Source of the DNA: Candidatus Odinarchaeota archaeon
GTDB lineage: Archaea; Asgardarchaeota; Odinarchaeia; Odinarchaeales; Odinarchaeaceae
DNA length: 6,221 nucleotides
Reading direction: 5' to 3'
NCBI GenBank assembly: GCA_038826135.1
Contig: JAWBON010000069.1
Location: 1 to 6,221 of the forward strand
The translations under genes were made by a program, and so were the position numbers. The notes beneath the pieces were generated by a model. It did no database searches. It was not told the DNA's origin and was given only the letters and a program-made list of their open reading frames with translations. This document shows positions 15 to 6,221 of this stretch, in pieces (within the stretch, counting starts at the first letter, position 1; each line of letters begins with the position of its first letter).

Positions 15-419
15 CTAATCTAATCGATTTATCAATTCTTCAACTCTCTCTCTAACTTCATCGCGTATTTTTCTAGCCTCTTCTAAGTTTACAGCCTCTT
101 TAAAATCTTTTATTTTCCATTCAACTGTTTTTTCAGGCGGGGCTGAAGGGCAGGATTCAATGCAGCCCATTGTCACTATTAAAGCAGCCTCTCTTATCAT
201 TTCATATGTTAATTTTTTCGGTGTCTGAGTTGTTAAATCCACGCCGATTTCTTTCATGACTTTTACAGCTGTAGGATTTAATAATTCTCCTTTTTCAAGA
301 CCTGCACTGAACGCTTTATAATCAGGGTTCTTATTTAAAATATTGAAGAAAGCTTCAGCCACCTGGCTTCTTCCAGTATTCTCTCGACATACGAATAAAA
401 TCTTTTTCATATCTATCAT
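15..419 (-). CDS. arsC: Arsenate reductase / LMW protein-tyrosine-phosphatase-fold protein (ArsC family)
   Basis: P-loop ILFVC-RENTG-RSQ (CX5R with conserved Asn), AEAF, SAG, and the TMGCIESCP cysteine pair (C86/C90) typical of thiol-cascade ArsC. It also has the W-x-I-x-D acid loop and a C-terminal 'RKIRDEVRERV' helix. The real start may be the second ATG at 410 (MKKILFVC). Arsenate reductase versus phosphatase activity cannot be proven from sequence. Confidence 0.85.
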   Translation of the reverse strand: MIDMKKILFVCRENTGRSQVAEAFFNILNKNPDYKAFSAGLEKGELLNPTAVKVMKEIGVDLTTQTPKKLTYEMIREAALIVTMGCIESCPSAPPEKTVEWKIKDFKEAVNLEEARKIRDEVRERVEELINRLD

Positions 420-492: not shown

Positions 493-1251
493 TTGGCTGA
501 AGCCGGCTTTCTCCCATTAGGTATTGAAGGTCTAGACGCTGCGTTAGGCGGTGGTGTTTTGAAGAACGGGATAGTTCTTATCTCCTTCGAACCAGGGTCT
601 GATGAATGGGCTTTCGGGTCAGAGATTATAAGAAACAGTTTAATTAGCGATGAATACGTTATTCACGTGGATTATGATCACGCGCCTGATTATTACGTTA
701 ATAGTATTGTAGGGTTAGGTGTTGAATCTTATAGTGCCCGCGATAAGCTTAGAAAAGAATATGATGCTGGAAAGGTAAGGTTTATTGACTGTTTTACAGC
801 GGAATCATCACAGGATAAGGTTAAACCAACAGCTTTCACAGTGATTTTAGATAACCCTTATAATCTCTCTAAACTGTTATTCACTATGAAGCAGGTTAGA
901 GAGTCTATTCCACACAGATCTGTTGTTAAATGGGTTTTCTCGAACATAACATCTCTGAGCATTAATCTTGCAGTCCAGGATATTGTTCGCTTCTGTCGAT
1001 CAGCTTTCAGGATGCATAAACAATTTAATGATCAAGCAATCTACTATGTTAACAGGGGCGCTCACCCGCCTGAATTCTTATCTCTTATATACCAGTTGGT
1101 GGATGTTGTAGTGGAGTTGAGAAATAAAGAGGTGGGTAACAGAGTGATGCGTTTTCTAAGAGTTGTTAAAAACCAGTTTAAAGAGCACATTGCATCCGAC
1201 CTAGTGTATAAAGTGGATAAGGGGAGGATTATTATAAGCTTATTGAAATAA
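493..1251 (+). CDS. KaiC/RAD55-like RecA-superfamily ATPase domain protein, predicted catalytically inactive
   Basis: The N-terminal 'LGIEGLDAALGGG' signature, 'VRFIDCFT', 'QLVDVVVEL' and 'RFLRVVK' follow the single-domain archaeal KaiC-like (COG0467-type) pattern over the full length. Walker A reads FEPGSDEW, the catalytic EE position reads YD, Walker B reads WVFSN, and the KMRG motif reads KNQF. TTG start with an upstream SD-like sequence. Confidence 0.8.
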   Translation: MAEAGFLPLGIEGLDAALGGGVLKNGIVLISFEPGSDEWAFGSEIIRNSLISDEYVIHVDYDHAPDYYVNSIVGLGVESYSARDKLRKEYDAGKVRFIDCFTAESSQDKVKPTAFTVILDNPYNLSKLLFTMKQVRESIPHRSVVKWVFSNITSLSINLAVQDIVRFCRSAFRMHKQFNDQAIYYVNRGAHPPEFLSLIYQLVDVVVELRNKEVGNRVMRFLRVVKNQFKEHIASDLVYKVDKGRIIISLLK

Positions 1252-1264
1252 TTTAAGTTTAAAA

Positions 1265-2902
1265 GTGATTTTTATGAGCGCGGATCTTGAAACACTAGCC
1301 GTCAACCTGAAGAACCTTGGGGACTCTGTGAAAATAATGTTTGAGAAAGCTTCGAGTATAATCCCTGAATCATCTGAAGCATTAGAGTTTATTAAGCTTC
1401 TATTAAACGATGTTGAAAAACTAGGATTAGAGTTAAAGCTCTCCGTTGAATCCTCAAGCGGTATAAAAGGGATTTTCGGCGCTAAAAAAAAGTATGCGAA
1501 AACACTGGGGGAGAAAATTAATAAACTGGAGGCCAACATTCTTGAAGGGCAGGTTAAAGCCTACAGTTACTATACTGATTATTTAACCAGTTTTGAAGGA
1601 GTGCTTCACGAAATAGAAAGAGACTACGAGCTTGTTAAAGATGAGAGTGTTAAGAGGAAAATGAATTGGAGCAGTCTGGTTAATATTAAACTTTCTATTG
1701 AAAACCTGAAATCAGTTAATTCGAATCTTAGCGATCGGATACTTAAATTGAAGTCTTCTAAAACTTTTAACATATCTGAACTGGTGGATTCAACTGACAG
1801 TATTTTAAAATGGCGTGGTGAAATTGAAAATTTAAAAAAAAGCCTGGAAGAATTACAGCGGAAACTAGCTTTCAGAAACATTCTCTTAGCGAAGATAATG
1901 GATATTCAGGGAAGCGTTGAAAAACAGAATGTTGAATTCTTTAAAACGATTCAAATAGATTTTTACGGGTTTCTTGAGAAATTAACCTCTCAAGTAACAG
2001 CGGAGAGAACCGATGACGTCTACTTGGAGGAGACTCTTCAACTATTAGATCCTATTAACACTTCTTTTAAAAATATTGCAGAAATAATCACGTCGCTCCA
2101 AGACGCGGGAATACCTTTAAACATAGTATTAGAGCAGTCTGATATCAAAAACGCTTTAACTCTTTTTAAAATAATACTGGAAAAATTTAGAATAGGCTTC
2201 AAAGAGTATATTGAACAAGAATATCTTTTCGTCGATAAGCTTAAACTAGCATGTTTAGAGCTTCACCCTGTGATTAAGAGTATTATAACCTACCTTGATA
2301 AACTAGGCGAAGCGCATAAAAATCTCAGAAACCTTATCTTAGGTGTAATCTCATCCTGGCTGATTAACTTTAAACAGAAAGGCGGTTGGGACGCTCTTAA
2401 AAAACTTTGCATCATATTAGAAAACTTTCTGTTAAACCATTATCCAGCGATTAATGAATGTATTAGAAATAGGATGCGGGGTGTGAACCCTAACACGATA
2501 CGTGGAGCCGCCTTATTTCAAAACTGTATACCCAGCGAATACCTTAAGGAACAATTCATATATGACACTATTCTACCTGTGATATTGAAGAACGAGGGTG
2601 TTGATGTGTTGATGAATGTTCTTCAAGCTTACGGTGAAAGAGGATGGATTAAACGAGCAGAGATTAAAAATATTTCAAGCGAATACATAGATAACTATCT
2701 TAAAACAACACCGTCTATTAAAATTGTAGACGTTAACGGCTATGAAATTCTGTTTTCACCTGAAATACTGCTTAAAAAAATTAAGAATATTTCCAACGAA
2801 TCTTTATATAACTACTTTAATAAATATGTATCAAACAGCGAACTGTGTAAAAAAATCTCAGAAGAAGTCTTTAAAAAACTATCTCAACAATCTAACACTT
2901 GA
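1265..2902 (+). CDS. Uncharacterised 545-aa alpha-helical/coiled-coil protein with a possible C-terminal winged-helix-like domain
   Basis: Long open frame filling the space between its neighbours (13-nt gap upstream, 34-nt gap downstream). L/I/E/K-rich amphipathic helices run over aa ~5-390. The C-terminal segment has a helix-strand-helix-helix-hairpin pattern (VLMNVLQAYGERGWIKRAEI...EYIDNYL...IKIVDVNGYEILFS). The likely start is ATG 1274, with GTGA at 1265-1268 acting as SD. No family recognised. Confidence 0.75.
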   Translation: MIFMSADLETLAVNLKNLGDSVKIMFEKASSIIPESSEALEFIKLLLNDVEKLGLELKLSVESSSGIKGIFGAKKKYAKTLGEKINKLEANILEGQVKAYSYYTDYLTSFEGVLHEIERDYELVKDESVKRKMNWSSLVNIKLSIENLKSVNSNLSDRILKLKSSKTFNISELVDSTDSILKWRGEIENLKKSLEELQRKLAFRNILLAKIMDIQGSVEKQNVEFFKTIQIDFYGFLEKLTSQVTAERTDDVYLEETLQLLDPINTSFKNIAEIITSLQDAGIPLNIVLEQSDIKNALTLFKIILEKFRIGFKEYIEQEYLFVDKLKLACLELHPVIKSIITYLDKLGEAHKNLRNLILGVISSWLINFKQKGGWDALKKLCIILENFLLNHYPAINECIRNRMRGVNPNTIRGAALFQNCIPSEYLKEQFIYDTILPVILKNEGVDVLMNVLQAYGERGWIKRAEIKNISSEYIDNYLKTTPSIKIVDVNGYEILFSPEILLKKIKNISNESLYNYFNKYVSNSELCKKISEEVFKKLSQQSNT

Positions 2903-2936
2903 AACTTCATAATTAAAATAATAGGCTGGACTGAAT

Positions 2937-4214
2937 ATGCCTGGAAGAGAAATATTAGTTTTACATGTAGGCCAAGGCGGTAACCAGATAGGTTACAATT
3001 TTTGGAAAACAATATGCGATGAACATCATATTGACATAAATAACACTCAGAAGAAGCCTGTTGACGAGGATAAAGTTGATTATAAATCCGTTTTCCTAGT
3101 TGAAGCCCCCGACGGCTTCCATCCCCGAGCGCTCTTCATCGACTTAGAGCCTTTAGCGGTTGAATTCTTGGTGAAAGAGAAAAAGCTTGCATCGTTTTTC
3201 TCAGAAGATCTTATGGTTTTAAGCTATTCAGGAGCTCATAACGTCTGGTCTATAGGCTATCAAACAGGTAAAAAACTGATCCCCGTGATCTTAGAGAAGA
3301 TAAGGGAGACAATGCCTGAAACACTTCAAGGATTTCTAATAATACACACTTTAGGAGGTGGAACCGGCAGCGGCTTCGGCTCCCTGATAACTGAAACTCT
3401 TAAAAAAGAATTCCCTGATAAAGGCATACTTAACTTCAGCATAATGCCCTCCGAAGTTAACGATATAACTCTTGCCCCCTACAACACTGTTTTAAGCATA
3501 AACCATTTATCTAAATTCTCAGATCTTGTAGTATTATTCGACAATACTGCTCTCATGCGGATAGTTAAAGACCAGCTTAACATCCCTATAATAAGACAGT
3601 TCTCTGATCTTAACTTTTTAATCGGCAGAGTTATGGCCTCCATCACAGCATCCCTAAGGTTTCCAGGCCAGCTTAACATGGATCTTATGGAGATGGCTCA
3701 TAATCTTGTAGCATTACCGGAAACAAAATTTATAATACCCTCCGTTGCACCTTTAACTAGAGAAGAGGGTGAAATATCCACGGAACTGGATCTTGTTGAA
3801 AGATGCTTCGACCCAACCCACTACATGGTAAACTGTAGCGGTCAAGGTAAAACACTATCCTCCGTTTTAATGTTTAGAGGAGATATCGCAATAGAGAATG
3901 TTTTCAGCATAATGGGCGATATTAAAACCAATGTTGAATTCGCTCCTGGAGTTCACCCTGACCTAGGCTTAAAATACGGTATGTGTGAGAGCGGCCCTGT
4001 AGAATTCGGTAAAGAAATAACACTTCTAACAAATAACACTATCATCTCGGAACCGTTCAACCGGGTGCTTGAACGCTTCGACTCGCTTTTCAACCGAAAC
4101 TGGTACATTAACCATTACGTTAACTCAGGCTTGTCTAAGACGGGTATGAAAGAAGCCCGCGACAATTTTGAAAAAATCATTAAAATATACAAGGAAATAG
4201 AGGGCTCCGGATAA
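2937..4214 (+). CDS. Eukaryote-type tubulin, OdinTubulin-like (Asgard archaeal tubulin)
   Basis: Tubulin-specific motifs that FtsZ lacks: N-terminal REILVLHVGQGGNQIG, EHHID, PRALFIDLEP, PYN, FDNTAL, DLN, SLRFPGQLNMDL..NLV, APLT and FD. The signature HTLGGGTGSG lies at aa 137-146 (GGGTGSG = 3354-3374), and the C-terminal H11-H12 helices are present. The length, the MPGREIL N-terminus and His393 match my recollection of the structurally characterised Odinarchaeota tubulin (not verified by search). Confidence 0.97.
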   Translation: MPGREILVLHVGQGGNQIGYNFWKTICDEHHIDINNTQKKPVDEDKVDYKSVFLVEAPDGFHPRALFIDLEPLAVEFLVKEKKLASFFSEDLMVLSYSGAHNVWSIGYQTGKKLIPVILEKIRETMPETLQGFLIIHTLGGGTGSGFGSLITETLKKEFPDKGILNFSIMPSEVNDITLAPYNTVLSINHLSKFSDLVVLFDNTALMRIVKDQLNIPIIRQFSDLNFLIGRVMASITASLRFPGQLNMDLMEMAHNLVALPETKFIIPSVAPLTREEGEISTELDLVERCFDPTHYMVNCSGQGKTLSSVLMFRGDIAIENVFSIMGDIKTNVEFAPGVHPDLGLKYGMCESGPVEFGKEITLLTNNTIISEPFNRVLERFDSLFNRNWYINHYVNSGLSKTGMKEARDNFEKIIKIYKEIEGSG

Positions 4215-4233
4215 TTTTCAAGAGGATCCGTAA

Positions 4234-5703
4234 ATGTCGAACAGCAATATAATCGAGGATTTCAATAATACGCTAAATCTTTTAATTCAAAAAATTTTCT
4301 TAAGCATTGAGCATATAATTATTGAAATGCATAGTCTTACCAGCTTACTAGAGAAAAACAATATCAAAATAGATAGTATCCGTGATTTTTTAGAAAAATT
4401 TAAAAAAAACTACATGTCAAACACTGGAAACACAGAGCAAAATTTGAAGGTAATCACCTCAATAGAGGACTTTTTAACATCTTATCACTGGGATGCTCAC
4501 GAATTCTATGACTCCTATAAGAAGCTGGTTGAGTCTTCCACAAGTTTTAAAGAAAGTCTTAAAAACTCTCTCACATCAATTCAAAAAAATATTAATCTCA
4601 TAACTAAAAGCTACGAGGATGAATCTAAAAAACTTATGGAAGAAAACAAGTCTCTTCAGAAAACTGTGAGCGAGATTCAAGCGAAAAACACATCATTACT
4701 AGAAGAAAAGAAAGCTCTCAACTCAAAGCTTGAACAGCTTAAACTCTCATATGATTCTTTAAATAAACAGTTCAACGAGCTTGAAAAAAACTATACCGTG
4801 AGTATTGAGAAAATCAGTAATCTCCAGAAATCTAATATTTCGCTTGAAAACAATCTTAAAACTGTTCAAGACAAATTTGACAAGATTAAAAGCAGTTTCA
4901 ACCAACTATACAACTCGTTTAACAGACTTCCAAGCAATGAACTAAAACTCCCCTCATATATTATTAAAAAATCTGTAAGACCGCCACCTGAGGTTGAACA
5001 GTTAGAAACGCTCTTCAAAAACATAGAGCTTCTAATAGAGCTTGACAATTCTCTTTTATCCTCGTACAGTAATAGTAGAGCTTTCAGTGAAGCCTTATTC
5101 AACAGCAACTACACTCAAATATTAAACCAGGTTTTCAAGAATATCATGGATATCGAGGACCAGGAGCATAATGAAATTGAACGTAAAATATGCGAGGTTG
5201 AAGCCTTAGCTAATGATCCGCAGCATATAAGATACATTCACACCGAGCTTTTTAAACCTTATATTAAAGCCGCTCGGACTCTGTTATCCACGCGGCAGAA
5301 AAAGATGGGTGAAGCCGCCTCTCAACTAATTGAAAAAGTTAAAGAAAAATTGGAAAACCAGGAGCTTAGGAAAATATTAATTCGAAGAACAGGTATAAGA
5401 AACACGGATATAGATGAATGTAGTATTCAAAGCTATGAGATACCTTTAGAAACCGATAATATCGACGCTTCACTGAGAAACCTGGTTGAATCATTAAACG
5501 ATGAAATAGCTGAGAGGAAAAGAGAACTGGTCACAATGTTCTTCGATTCCTGGCGTGAAACCGCTTTACAACTTACAGGGGGAGGGGTTGAAAAAATCGT
5601 TGCATATATTATTTTACTTATAACTAAACGCATACTTGATAAAACCAGTGTTAAAGACTCTGATCTGAGAAAACTGTTTAAGCGGAGCCTAATACTTGTT
5701 TAA
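4234..5703 (+). CDS. Uncharacterised 489-aa protein with a central long leucine-zipper coiled coil
   Basis: Starts 19 nt after the tubulin stop, with SD GAGGA at 4222-4226. An uninterrupted heptad repeat spans aa 134-232, followed by a Pro-rich linker (aa 233-252) and a helical C-terminal domain. No family recognised. Confidence 0.85.
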   Translation: MSNSNIIEDFNNTLNLLIQKIFLSIEHIIIEMHSLTSLLEKNNIKIDSIRDFLEKFKKNYMSNTGNTEQNLKVITSIEDFLTSYHWDAHEFYDSYKKLVESSTSFKESLKNSLTSIQKNINLITKSYEDESKKLMEENKSLQKTVSEIQAKNTSLLEEKKALNSKLEQLKLSYDSLNKQFNELEKNYTVSIEKISNLQKSNISLENNLKTVQDKFDKIKSSFNQLYNSFNRLPSNELKLPSYIIKKSVRPPPEVEQLETLFKNIELLIELDNSLLSSYSNSRAFSEALFNSNYTQILNQVFKNIMDIEDQEHNEIERKICEVEALANDPQHIRYIHTELFKPYIKAARTLLSTRQKKMGEAASQLIEKVKEKLENQELRKILIRRTGIRNTDIDECSIQSYEIPLETDNIDASLRNLVESLNDEIAERKRELVTMFFDSWRETALQLTGGGVEKIVAYIILLITKRILDKTSVKDSDLRKLFKRSLILV

Positions 5704-5758: not shown

Positions 5759-6221
5759 ATGAGTGAAGAGAATGTTACTGAAAAAAGGATCCCTGTCAAA
5801 GGAATTAACTGTGCTAAATGTAGACTGGATATTGAAAATGTTTTAACACGTTTTAAAGGTGTTGAAAGCGCTAAAATGGATTATATGACCGGTAACATCT
5901 CTGTGAAATACGATTATAAGAAGACTGATCTACCTGAAATTGAACGTGTTATTGAAAACTTAGGATATAATATAGCCTATAAAGAGTATGAGACTGGTTT
6001 ATCTAAGTTTAAAAAACTGTTCGGTAAGAAAATAAAACATCTTCGAAAAGTTGACGACCATACTTTTCCCGGCCTAGTCTTAGAAACCTGTAAGCTTACA
6101 GTGCTTTTAGTTTACGAGGAAAACTGCGGGGAATGTGAACGCATAGAATCAGAGTTAAACTCGTTAATCCCTGTTTTTAAAAATAAAGTATACTTCTATA
6201 AAGCCGACTGTAAACTTTCAA
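5759..6221 (+). CDS. Heavy-metal-associated (HMA/CopZ-like) domain fused to a thioredoxin-like domain; 3' end truncated by the window edge
   Basis: Manual translation from ATG 5759 is open to the window end: MSEENVTEKRIPVKGINCAKCRLDIENVLTRFKGVESAKMDYMTGNISVKYDYKKTDLPEIERVIENLGYNIAYKEYETGLSKFKKLFGKKIKHLRKVDDHTFPGLVLETCKLTVLLVYEENCGECERIESELNSLIPVFKNKVYFYKADCKLS. The HMA motif is GINCAKC (Cys at 5810 and 5819), with KGV and LGY hallmarks. The thioredoxin-type pattern is 'KVDDHTF...VLLVY...CGEC...KVYFYKAD' (CGEC at 6125-6136). Confidence 0.85.
   Translation, partial: MSEENVTEKRIPVKGINCAKCRLDIENVLTRFKGVESAKMDYMTGNISVKYDYKKTDLPEIERVIENLGYNIAYKEYETGLSKFKKLFGKKIKHLRKVDDHTFPGLVLETCKLTVLLVYEENCGECERIESELNSLIPVFKNKVYFYKADCKLS

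What the first reader, a model, noticed from the sequence alone, without database searches (positions are those of the whole stretch)
2937..3710. Single tubulin combining alpha-, beta- and gamma-like motifs: self-activating GTPase loop
Seen in sequence: the T7 loop/H8 reads SLRFPGQLNMDLMEMAHNLV (N247, D249, E252; F242-E252 = 3660-3692). Established knowledge: FPGQLN is the beta-tubulin form (FPGQLNADLRKL), whereas Glu at this position is the catalytic alpha-tubulin E254, where beta has Lys. The N-terminus MPGREI...QIGYNFWKTICDEH resembles gamma-tubulin (MPREI...QIGFEFWKQLCAEH). The T3 loop is SGAHNVW versus beta SGAGNNW, and T5 is TLAPYN versus VVEPYN. Inference: every interface should be hydrolysis-competent, as expected for a tubulin from before the alpha/beta split. 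This is largely known for OdinTubulin. If this copy comes from a distinct species, its substitutions help define what is constrained in the lineage.
Basis: partly seen in the sequence, partly recalled or inferred. Interest (0 to 1): 0.65.

Follow-up and report, generated by a model that had tools for sequence, protein, structure and literature searches.

The report
Second-species copy of OdinTubulin
This gene is a well-conserved copy, from a different hot-spring Odinarchaeia species, of the already crystallised archaeal tubulin "OdinTubulin".

Summary
ORF 2937-4214 (+), 425 aa, is an intact tubulin. It aligns without gaps to OdinTubulin (PDB 7EVB, E 7e-259, 88% identity). An AlphaFold model matches those crystal structures at TM 0.95.

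E252 aligns with the catalytic Glu of alpha-tubulin and the Lys of beta-tubulin. The genome (93% complete) has one tubulin and two FtsZ genes. A homopolymer in which every interface can hydrolyse GTP is therefore the best reading, as published for OdinTubulin.

In an ML tree the protein sits inside a monophyletic Odin-type clade (99/97). It lies outside the alpha, beta, gamma and epsilon clades, and the backbone is unresolved.

The "gamma-like" N-terminus is not specific: identity is 51% to gamma and 55% to beta. The acidic residue at 252 and P243 are also present in FtsZ, so the apparent mosaic is retained ancestral states.

The copy comes from a distinct species: 73-75% DNA identity to congeners, dS 1.6-1.9, dN/dS 0.03-0.05.

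The modest new point is that the 37-residue H7-T7-H8 segment is invariant across ten Odin-type sequences except at position 245. This copy keeps the ancestral Q245 and M207, whereas the crystallised LCB_4 protein has derived P245 and I207.

The scan has already reported the conserved flanking-gene cassette in other Odin genomes.

The parts
2937..4214 (+). Odin-type tubulin gene, 425 aa, intact
   Evidence: ORF list. Pfam PF00091 and PF03953. Gapless alignment to PDB 7EVB at E 7e-259. AF2 model TM 0.95 to 7EVG/7EVB. dN/dS 0.03-0.05.
2970..2987 (+). T1 loop GQGGNQ (residues 12-17), part of the GTP phosphate-binding site
   Evidence: T1 (residues 10-17) is invariant in 10 Odin-type sequences.
3228..3248 (+). 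T3 loop SGAHNVW (98-104). H101 is a clade-specific residue
   Evidence: H101 is present in 10/10 Odin-type sequences, against G or A in alpha, beta, gamma, epsilon and FtsZ. Akil 2022 (PMC8956254) assigns the His101 main-chain amide a role in positioning the hydrolytic water.
3354..3374 (+). T4 tubulin signature GGGTGSG (140-146)
   Evidence: invariant.
3468..3485 (+). T5 loop TLAPYN (178-183). A180 replaces the Glu of alpha/beta VVEPYN
   Evidence: A180 is present in 10/10 Odin-type sequences, against E in alpha and beta.
3555..3557 (+). M207 codon. This is the ancestral state; it is I207 in the LCB_4/J65/RPA3 subclade
3600..3710 (+). H7-T7-H8 'nucleotide sensor motif' (residues 222-258)
   Evidence: 36 of 37 positions are invariant in 10 Odin-type sequences, against 60% for the whole protein. 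The motif is named in Akil 2022.
3660..3692 (+). T7 loop and start of H8, FPGQLNMDLME, with N247, D249 and catalytic E252 (3690-3692). Q245 is at 3669-3671
   Evidence: Register with alpha Glu, beta Lys and FtsZ Asp. Q245 is the only variable site in the motif.
1265..2902 (+). Upstream 545-aa helical protein with no Pfam or NCBIfam family. It is a conserved neighbour (context only)
   Evidence: It lies next to the tubulin gene, on the same strand, in all 6 genomes with the tubulin.
4234..5703 (+). Downstream 489-aa coiled-coil protein. It is a conserved neighbour (context only)
   Evidence: Only sub-threshold SMC/Rad50 coiled-coil hits. It lies next to the tubulin gene, on the same strand, in all 6 genomes.

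Best explanation
The gene encodes the orthologue of OdinTubulin in another species of the same Odinarchaeia genus. It is the cell's only true tubulin. GTP binds at loops T1-T6 of one subunit. The T7 loop and helix H8 of the next subunit (N247, D249, E252) complete the active site when subunits stack head to tail. Because every subunit carries the Glu, and there is no Lys-bearing beta-like partner, GTP can be hydrolysed at every longitudinal interface. Eukaryotic microtubules hydrolyse only at every second interface. The alpha-like Glu and the beta-like FPGQLN are ancestral characters that different eukaryotic paralogues later lost. Shown here: identity, register of the motif, single copy, clade membership, strong purifying selection and fold. 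Inferred from the published LCB_4 work: polymerisation, hydrolysis chemistry and tubule geometry.
For: 88% gapless identity to 7EVB. The AF2 model matches 7EVG/7EVB at TM 0.95, against 0.89-0.91 for eukaryotic tubulins. E252 aligns with alpha Glu, beta Lys and FtsZ Asp. The own genome has one tubulin and two FtsZ. Each related genome that has the gene shows one match, including a closed 1.42-Mb single-contig genome. In the ML tree the Odin-type clade has support 99/97, and the window groups with its three congeners at 100/99. dN/dS is 0.034-0.046 at dS 1.6-1.9. T1, T3, T4, H7 and H8 are invariant in ten sequences. Akil 2022 (PMC8956254) shows the corresponding Glu ordering the hydrolytic water and equates it with alpha-E254 and beta-K254. 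[quoted passage not shown]
Against: No biochemistry exists for this orthologue. No published mutant of the catalytic Glu of any OdinTubulin turned up in the papers I read; only H393D was made. The genome is 93% complete, so a second tubulin in unassembled DNA is not formally excluded. Polymer geometry may differ, since 51 residues differ from LCB_4, including Q245 in the T7 loop.
Confidence: 0.9

Rival explanations
1. The Odin-type tubulin is not a relic from before the alpha/beta split. It is a derived single-gene lineage, for example an orthologue of the Lokiarchaeial AtubC, or a descendant of an alpha-like gene that lost its partner. On this view the mosaic of motifs says little about the ancestral eukaryotic tubulin.
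For: The backbone among the alpha, beta, gamma, epsilon, Atub/Btub and Odin clades is unresolved in the careful ML tree. PMC13394414 reports that Odin tubulins tend to cluster with AtubC, with low support. PMC9871819 stresses that the position is unstable.
Against: The acidic residue at 252 and P243 are shared with FtsZ. This fits simple retention and needs no partner loss. PMC13371889 recovers Odin tubulins as a basal clade. No Lys-bearing paralogue was found in any of six Odin-type genomes.
Confidence: 0.3
2. The gene is eukaryotic contamination, or a recent transfer from a eukaryote into the bin.
For: Many short contigs in prokaryotic assemblies carry eukaryote-like tubulins, so contamination of this gene family is common.
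Against: The protein is only 33-38% identical to any eukaryotic tubulin. It lies outside the alpha, beta, gamma and epsilon clades (each 98-100 support). It sits in a gene order conserved across six Odinarchaeia-order genomes, one of them closed. GC content is uniform across the contig, 0.31-0.41.
Confidence: 0.01
3. The gene is a decaying or non-catalytic tubulin remnant.
For: None found.
Against: The 425-codon frame is intact and all GTP-binding loops and the NxDxxE motif are invariant. dN/dS is 0.03-0.05 with synonymous sites near saturation.
Confidence: 0.01

Closest known systems
OdinTubulin of Candidatus Odinarchaeum yellowstonii LCB_4 (OLS18786.1; PDB 7EVB, 7EVE, 7EVG, 7EVH, 7F1B; Akil et al. 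2022, PMC8956254)
   Same: Same length, with a gapless alignment at 88% identity. T1, T3, T4, H7 and H8 are identical, as are N247, D249, E252 and H101. It is likewise the single tubulin gene in its genome. The flanking genes are the same.
   Different: 51 substitutions against the native LCB_4 protein, mostly in the H1-S2 loop, the intermediate-domain surface and H11-H12. Q245 and M207 here are P245 and I207 in LCB_4. The crystal structures carry the engineered H393D change, whereas this copy has native H393. DNA identity is only about 73%, so it is a different species.
Eukaryotic alpha-tubulin
   Same: Catalytic Glu in H8 at the aligned position. The N-x-D of T7 is conserved.
   Different: 33-37% identity. 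Alpha has F[DE]GALN and EDAANNY where this protein has FPGQLN and SGAHNVW. Alpha forms an obligate heterodimer with beta. The alpha clade excludes this protein at 100/100.
Eukaryotic beta-tubulin
   Same: FPGQLN in T7, an SGA-N-W-type T3 loop, and the highest overall identity of any eukaryotic class (34-38%).
   Different: Beta has Lys where this protein has E252, so beta cannot activate hydrolysis. The beta clade excludes this protein at 98/95.
Asgard AtubA/AtubB (Lokiarchaeum ossiferum, Heimdallarchaeia) and bacterial BtubA/BtubB
   Same: Prokaryotic true tubulins with 32-36% identity.
   Different: These are paired Glu/Lys paralogues encoded in tandem that form heterodimers and mini-microtubules (PMC13371889, PMC13394414). 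The Odin type is a single gene. No homologue of its two flanking genes lies near the Loki tubulins.

Membership tests
Tubulin family (Pfam Tubulin PF00091 + Tubulin_C PF03953) | Both domains above the curated thresholds | tested here: met
   PF00091 159.9 bits (cut-off 33). PF03953 49.3 bits (cut-off 26.6)..
Tubulin family (Pfam Tubulin PF00091 + Tubulin_C PF03953) | Tubulin fold | tested here: met
   AF2 model with pLDDT 82 and pTM 0.87. Foldseek TM 0.95 to OdinTubulin entries and 0.89-0.91 to alpha/beta tubulins.
Odin-type tubulin clade (OdinTubulin) | Groups with OdinTubulin in a phylogeny, to the exclusion of other tubulin classes | tested here: met
   Careful IQ-TREE (LG+C20 PMSF, 45 rows, FtsZ root). 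The Odin-type clade has support 99/97. The window groups with J65, LCB_4 and RPA3 at 100/99. At 50% clustering the whole clade is a single cluster, and the next hits are at or below about 39% identity over full length.
Odin-type tubulin clade (OdinTubulin) | T7/H8 motif N-x-D-x-x-E with the catalytic Glu on every subunit | tested here: met
   N247, D249 and E252. Invariant in 10/10 sequences and in register with alpha Glu, beta Lys and FtsZ Asp.
Odin-type tubulin clade (OdinTubulin) | Single tubulin gene, with no Lys-bearing partner | tested here: met
   The own genome has one tubulin and two FtsZ (93% complete). There is one match per genome in five relatives, including a closed one.
Odin-type tubulin clade (OdinTubulin) | Clade signature residues H101 (T3) and A180 (T5) | tested here: met
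   10/10 Odin-type sequences have them. They are absent from the alpha, beta, gamma, epsilon, Atub/Btub and FtsZ rows. I derived this signature here; it is not a published definition.
Odin-type tubulin clade (OdinTubulin) | GTP-dependent polymerisation into tubules of curved protofilaments at high temperature, with GTP hydrolysis | not testable with these tools
   Shown only for the LCB_4 protein (PMC8956254).
Gamma-tubulin | Specific sequence affinity (N-terminus or whole protein) and clade membership | tested here: not met
   Residues 1-30 are 51% identical to gamma and 55% to beta. The whole protein is 29% identical to gamma and 34% to beta. The gamma T7/H8 lacks the Glu (S/G/N). The gamma clade excludes the window at 100/100.
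Beta-tubulin | Lys at the H8 position (non-catalytic) and clade membership | tested here: not met
   The window has E252. The beta clade excludes it at 98/95.
Alpha-tubulin | Clade membership | tested here: not met
   The Glu is shared, but the alpha clade excludes the window at 100/100.

The most novel reading that the evidence does not exclude
Position 245 is the only variable site in the otherwise invariant 37-residue nucleotide-sensor segment (H7-T7-H8). Together with position 207 it marks a derived change (Q245P and M207I) in the small subclade that includes the crystallised LCB_4 protein. If these two residues tune GTPase rate or protofilament curvature, the model OdinTubulin would be atypical of its clade. 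This ancestral-state copy would then be the better proxy for the proto-tubulin.
Probability: 0.15. Interest if true: 0.35.

Novelty: new member of a known kind. Interest (0 to 1): 0.2.

Why it matters
OdinTubulin is one of the reference points for how eukaryotic microtubules arose. A second, well-diverged orthologue adds no new principle. It does give a natural-variation map across ten Odin-type sequences. The GTP loops and the H7-T7-H8 sensor are frozen (36 of 37 positions). The H1-S2 loop (39% invariant) and the C-terminal helices (31%) drift. The crystallised protein differs from the clade consensus at two sites, in the T7 loop (245) and beside the T6 loop (207). That helps in choosing constructs and mutants, but it would not surprise a specialist.

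Tried and rejected
(1) Gamma-tubulin affinity of the N-terminus. I measured per-class identity over residues 1-30 and it is not specific, so I rejected it.

(2) Eukaryotic contamination or HGT. Rejected by the tree and by synteny.

(3) Homologues of the two flanking genes near the Lokiarchaeum tubulin genes or other prokaryotic tubulin loci. tblastn at E<=1e-2 found none.

(4) Pfam and NCBIfam assignment of the flanking 545-aa and 489-aa proteins. I found nothing above threshold, only coiled-coil noise such as SMC, Rad50 and GAS.

(5) The bacterial-type promoter/terminator scan is uninformative for an archaeon.

(6) Resolving whether the Odin type predates the alpha/beta split. The backbone stays open even with LG+C20 PMSF.

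(7) Residue numbering. Akil 2022 writes Asn246/Asp248/Glu251, but counting from Met1 in both the PDB SEQRES alignment and this ORF gives 247/249/252. His101 and H393 do agree with Met1 numbering. I treat this as a numbering slip in the paper and could not resolve it further.

(8) I did not fold or further search the flanking proteins. Other reports of this scan already cover that cassette.

Full report
**Observation.** The window is one whole 6,221-bp contig (C69) of a 1.26-Mb, 105-contig genome that is 93% complete. ORF 2937-4214 (+) encodes 425 residues.
- MPGREI is residues 1-6 and QIGYNFWKTICDEH is 17-30.
- SGAHNVW is 98-104, with H101.
- TLAPYN is 178-183.
- SLRFPGQLNMDLMEMAHNLV is 239-258 (nt 3651-3710).
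- F242-E252 is nt 3660-3692, with N247, D249 and E252.

The protein passes Pfam thresholds for the tubulin GTPase domain and the tubulin C-terminal domain.

**What it is.** The best solved relative is OdinTubulin (PDB 7EVB and sister entries). The E-value is 7e-259 and the alignment runs 1-424 to 1-424 without a gap. An AlphaFold2 model (pLDDT 82, pTM 0.87) matches the OdinTubulin crystal structures at TM 0.95. It matches eukaryotic alpha/beta tubulins at TM 0.89-0.91.

Whole-genome searches found one orthologue in each of the three other species of the same genus, at 91, 88 and 87% identity. They also found one in two of three genomes of a second genus in the same order, at 72-73%. No match at E<=1e-20 appeared in 34 further Asgard genomes. 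Record titles identify the relatives as Odinarchaeota J65_bin.29, Odinarchaeia RPA3, and two MAGs labelled Hodarchaeota and Promethearchaeota by their submitters. The 88% relative lies on a single 1,418,269-bp contig. Its translation equals the 7EVB sequence apart from position 393. From memory, that size matches the closed LCB_4 genome.

The window's species is clearly distinct. DNA identity over the syntenic region is 73-75%. Synonymous sites are near saturation (dS 1.6-1.9), while dN/dS is 0.034-0.046. The gene is therefore under strong purifying selection.

**Register of the catalytic loop.** In two MAFFT alignments built from tool-retrieved sequences, E252 falls in the column of the alpha-tubulin Glu (VD[IL][TM]EF) and of the beta-tubulin Lys (ADLRKL). 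The alignments used named alpha and beta tubulins, plus a gamma-tubulin identified by its PDB hit 8vrd at 7e-217 and an epsilon-tubulin named by NCBI. With the genome's own two FtsZ proteins added, the same column holds the FtsZ Asp. Residues at position 252 by class:

| Class | Residue at 252 |
|---|---|
| Odin-type | E (10/10) |
| Alpha | E |
| Epsilon | E or D |
| FtsZ | D |
| Beta | K |
| Gamma | S, G or N |

Akil et al. 2022 (PMC8956254) show the corresponding Glu holding a cation and the hydrolytic water in the crystal. They equate it with alpha-E254 and beta-K254. They number the residues Asn246/Asp248/Glu251, one less than counting from Met1, although their His101 and H393D agree with Met1 numbering. 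The first refutation test, 'out of register', is therefore not met.

**Is it a mosaic of alpha, beta and gamma?** Only partly.
- FPGQLN matches beta and the Glu matches alpha. However, Pro243 is also present in FtsZ, beta and gamma, and an acidic residue at 252 is the superfamily default. These are retained ancestral states rather than a combination.
- The N-terminus is not specifically gamma-like. Residues 1-30 are 55% identical to beta, 53% to Asgard/bacterial tubulins, 51% to gamma, 48% to epsilon and 33% to alpha. Only Pro2 is shared with gamma and epsilon.
- H101 in T3 and A180 in T5 are invariant in the Odin-type clade and absent from every other class sampled. They are lineage signatures rather than resemblances to a eukaryotic paralogue.
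- Akil et al. already made the hybrid point: a hybrid alpha/beta sequence raises identity from 34-35% to 37.5%.

**Phylogeny.** I ran a careful IQ-TREE analysis (LG+C20+F+G4 by PMSF, 45 rows, 432 columns, rooted on the genome's own FtsZ pair). The rows came from the exhaustive representative search, named hits and prokaryotic loci.
- The ten Odin-type sequences form a clade with support 99/97.
- The window is sister to (J65, (LCB_4, RPA3)), with support 100/99.
- Alpha, gamma and epsilon are each monophyletic at 100/100 and beta at 98/95. All of these clades exclude the window.
- A Bathyarchaeota protein (MBT4422911.1) attaches as a very long-branch sister at 97/98. PMC13394414 also mentions this sequence.
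- The backbone among the classes is unresolved.

The third refutation test, nesting inside a eukaryotic subfamily, is not met. 'Before the alpha/beta split' can be neither confirmed nor rejected. Published trees differ: PMC13371889 finds a basal 'proto-tubulin' clade, PMC13394414 finds possible orthology with AtubC at low support, and PMC9871819 finds the position unstable.

**Mechanism.** The own genome has one tubulin and two FtsZ genes. Each Odin-type genome shows a single match, including the closed one. With a single gene carrying the Glu, each subunit's T7/H8 completes the GTP site of its neighbour, so every longitudinal interface is hydrolysis-competent. This is the published view of OdinTubulin (PMC8956254; PMC13371889). 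Here it is inferred from sequence identity and has not been measured.

**What this copy adds.** The protein differs from native LCB_4 at 51 positions. Across ten full-length Odin-type sequences, 253 of 425 positions are invariant. Invariance by segment:

| Segment | Invariant positions |
|---|---|
| T1, T3, T4, H7, H8 | all |
| H7-T7-H8 (residues 222-258) | 36 of 37 |
| H1-S2 loop | 39% |
| H11-H12 | 31% |

The single variable site in the H7-T7-H8 sensor segment is 245. It is Q in the window, in six other full-length sequences and in two partial, more divergent ones. It is P only in J65, LCB_4 and RPA3. The only other change shared by that subclade against all the rest is M207I. The crystallised protein therefore carries two derived substitutions, one in the T7 loop and one next to the T6 loop, and the window keeps the ancestral pair. 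This rests on a single evolutionary event, so no covariation statistic is possible. The 14 residues unique to the window lie outside the nucleotide loops.

**Context.** The tubulin gene sits between a 545-aa helical protein and a 489-aa coiled-coil protein. The three genes share a strand, with gaps of 34 and 19 nt. This trio is conserved in all six genomes, and the neighbours evolve much faster than the tubulin:

| Protein | Identity within genus | Identity between genera |
|---|---|---|
| Upstream 545-aa helical protein | 63-67% | 27% |
| Downstream 489-aa coiled-coil protein | 45-48% | 31-32% |
| Tubulin | 87-91% | 72-73% |

No homologues of the two neighbours lie near the Lokiarchaeum tubulins. 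Santana-Molina et al. 2023 had already noted the two flanking genes in LCB_4 (PMC9871819). Earlier reports of this scan describe the cassette in other Odin genomes and note it on this window. I therefore verified the synteny and did not pursue it further.

**Verdict.** Odin tubulins have been described as a single-copy monophyletic group in all known odinarchaeial genomes (PMC13394414). This is a new member of a known kind and of low interest. Its modest value is as a natural-variation data point (ancestral Q245 and M207).

Noticed in passing
window 1265-5703: The trio of helical 545-aa protein, tubulin and coiled-coil 489-aa protein is co-oriented, tightly spaced and conserved in all six genomes that carry an Odin-type tubulin. 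The flanking proteins diverge far faster than the tubulin (27-32% against 72% between genera). PMC9871819 already noted this for LCB_4, and other reports of this scan cover it.
   Followed up: partly
window 493-1251: A KaiC/ArlH-like protein (Pfam PF06745, 4e-12) lies directly upstream of the cluster. It reads FEPGSDEW where a Walker A GxxGxGKT would be expected, so it is probably not an ATPase. It is a conserved neighbour only within the genus.
   Followed up: no
window 5759-6220 and 15-419(-): An HMA metal-binding domain is fused to a thioredoxin-like domain; the ORF runs off the contig end. A low-molecular-weight phosphatase/ArsC-type gene lies on the other flank.
   Followed up: no
P0250 (MBT4422911.1, Candidatus Bathyarchaeota): A 434-aa Bathyarchaeota tubulin is the long-branch sister of the Odin-type clade (97/98). 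It has Asp at the catalytic position and an altered T7 loop. PMC13394414 mentions such a sequence and could not rule out contamination.
   Followed up: partly
L037, L049, L052, L055 (Myxococcota); L021 (Methylococcaceae): Full-length tubulin genes sit on long bacterial contigs (54 kb to 1.5 Mb). The Myxococcota genes form two tight pairs of lineages in the quick tree. They are possibly a little-known bacterial tubulin system outside Verrucomicrobia.
   Followed up: no
L022-L036 and similar short loci; L031: Dozens of 1-3-kb contigs in bacterial assemblies carry eukaryote-like alpha or beta tubulins. One 'Verrucomicrobiaceae' locus (L031) sits inside the eukaryotic alpha clade on a short branch. 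These are most likely eukaryotic contamination of the bins.
   Followed up: no
PDB 7EVB family against native sequence, residue 393 (window nt 4113-4115): The six OdinTubulin entries returned by the fold search (7EVB, 7EVE, 7EVG, 7EVH, 7EVL, 7F1B) are all the engineered H393D mutant. The window and all natural orthologues have His393. The paper's T7 residue numbers are one lower than Met1-based numbering.
   Followed up: yes
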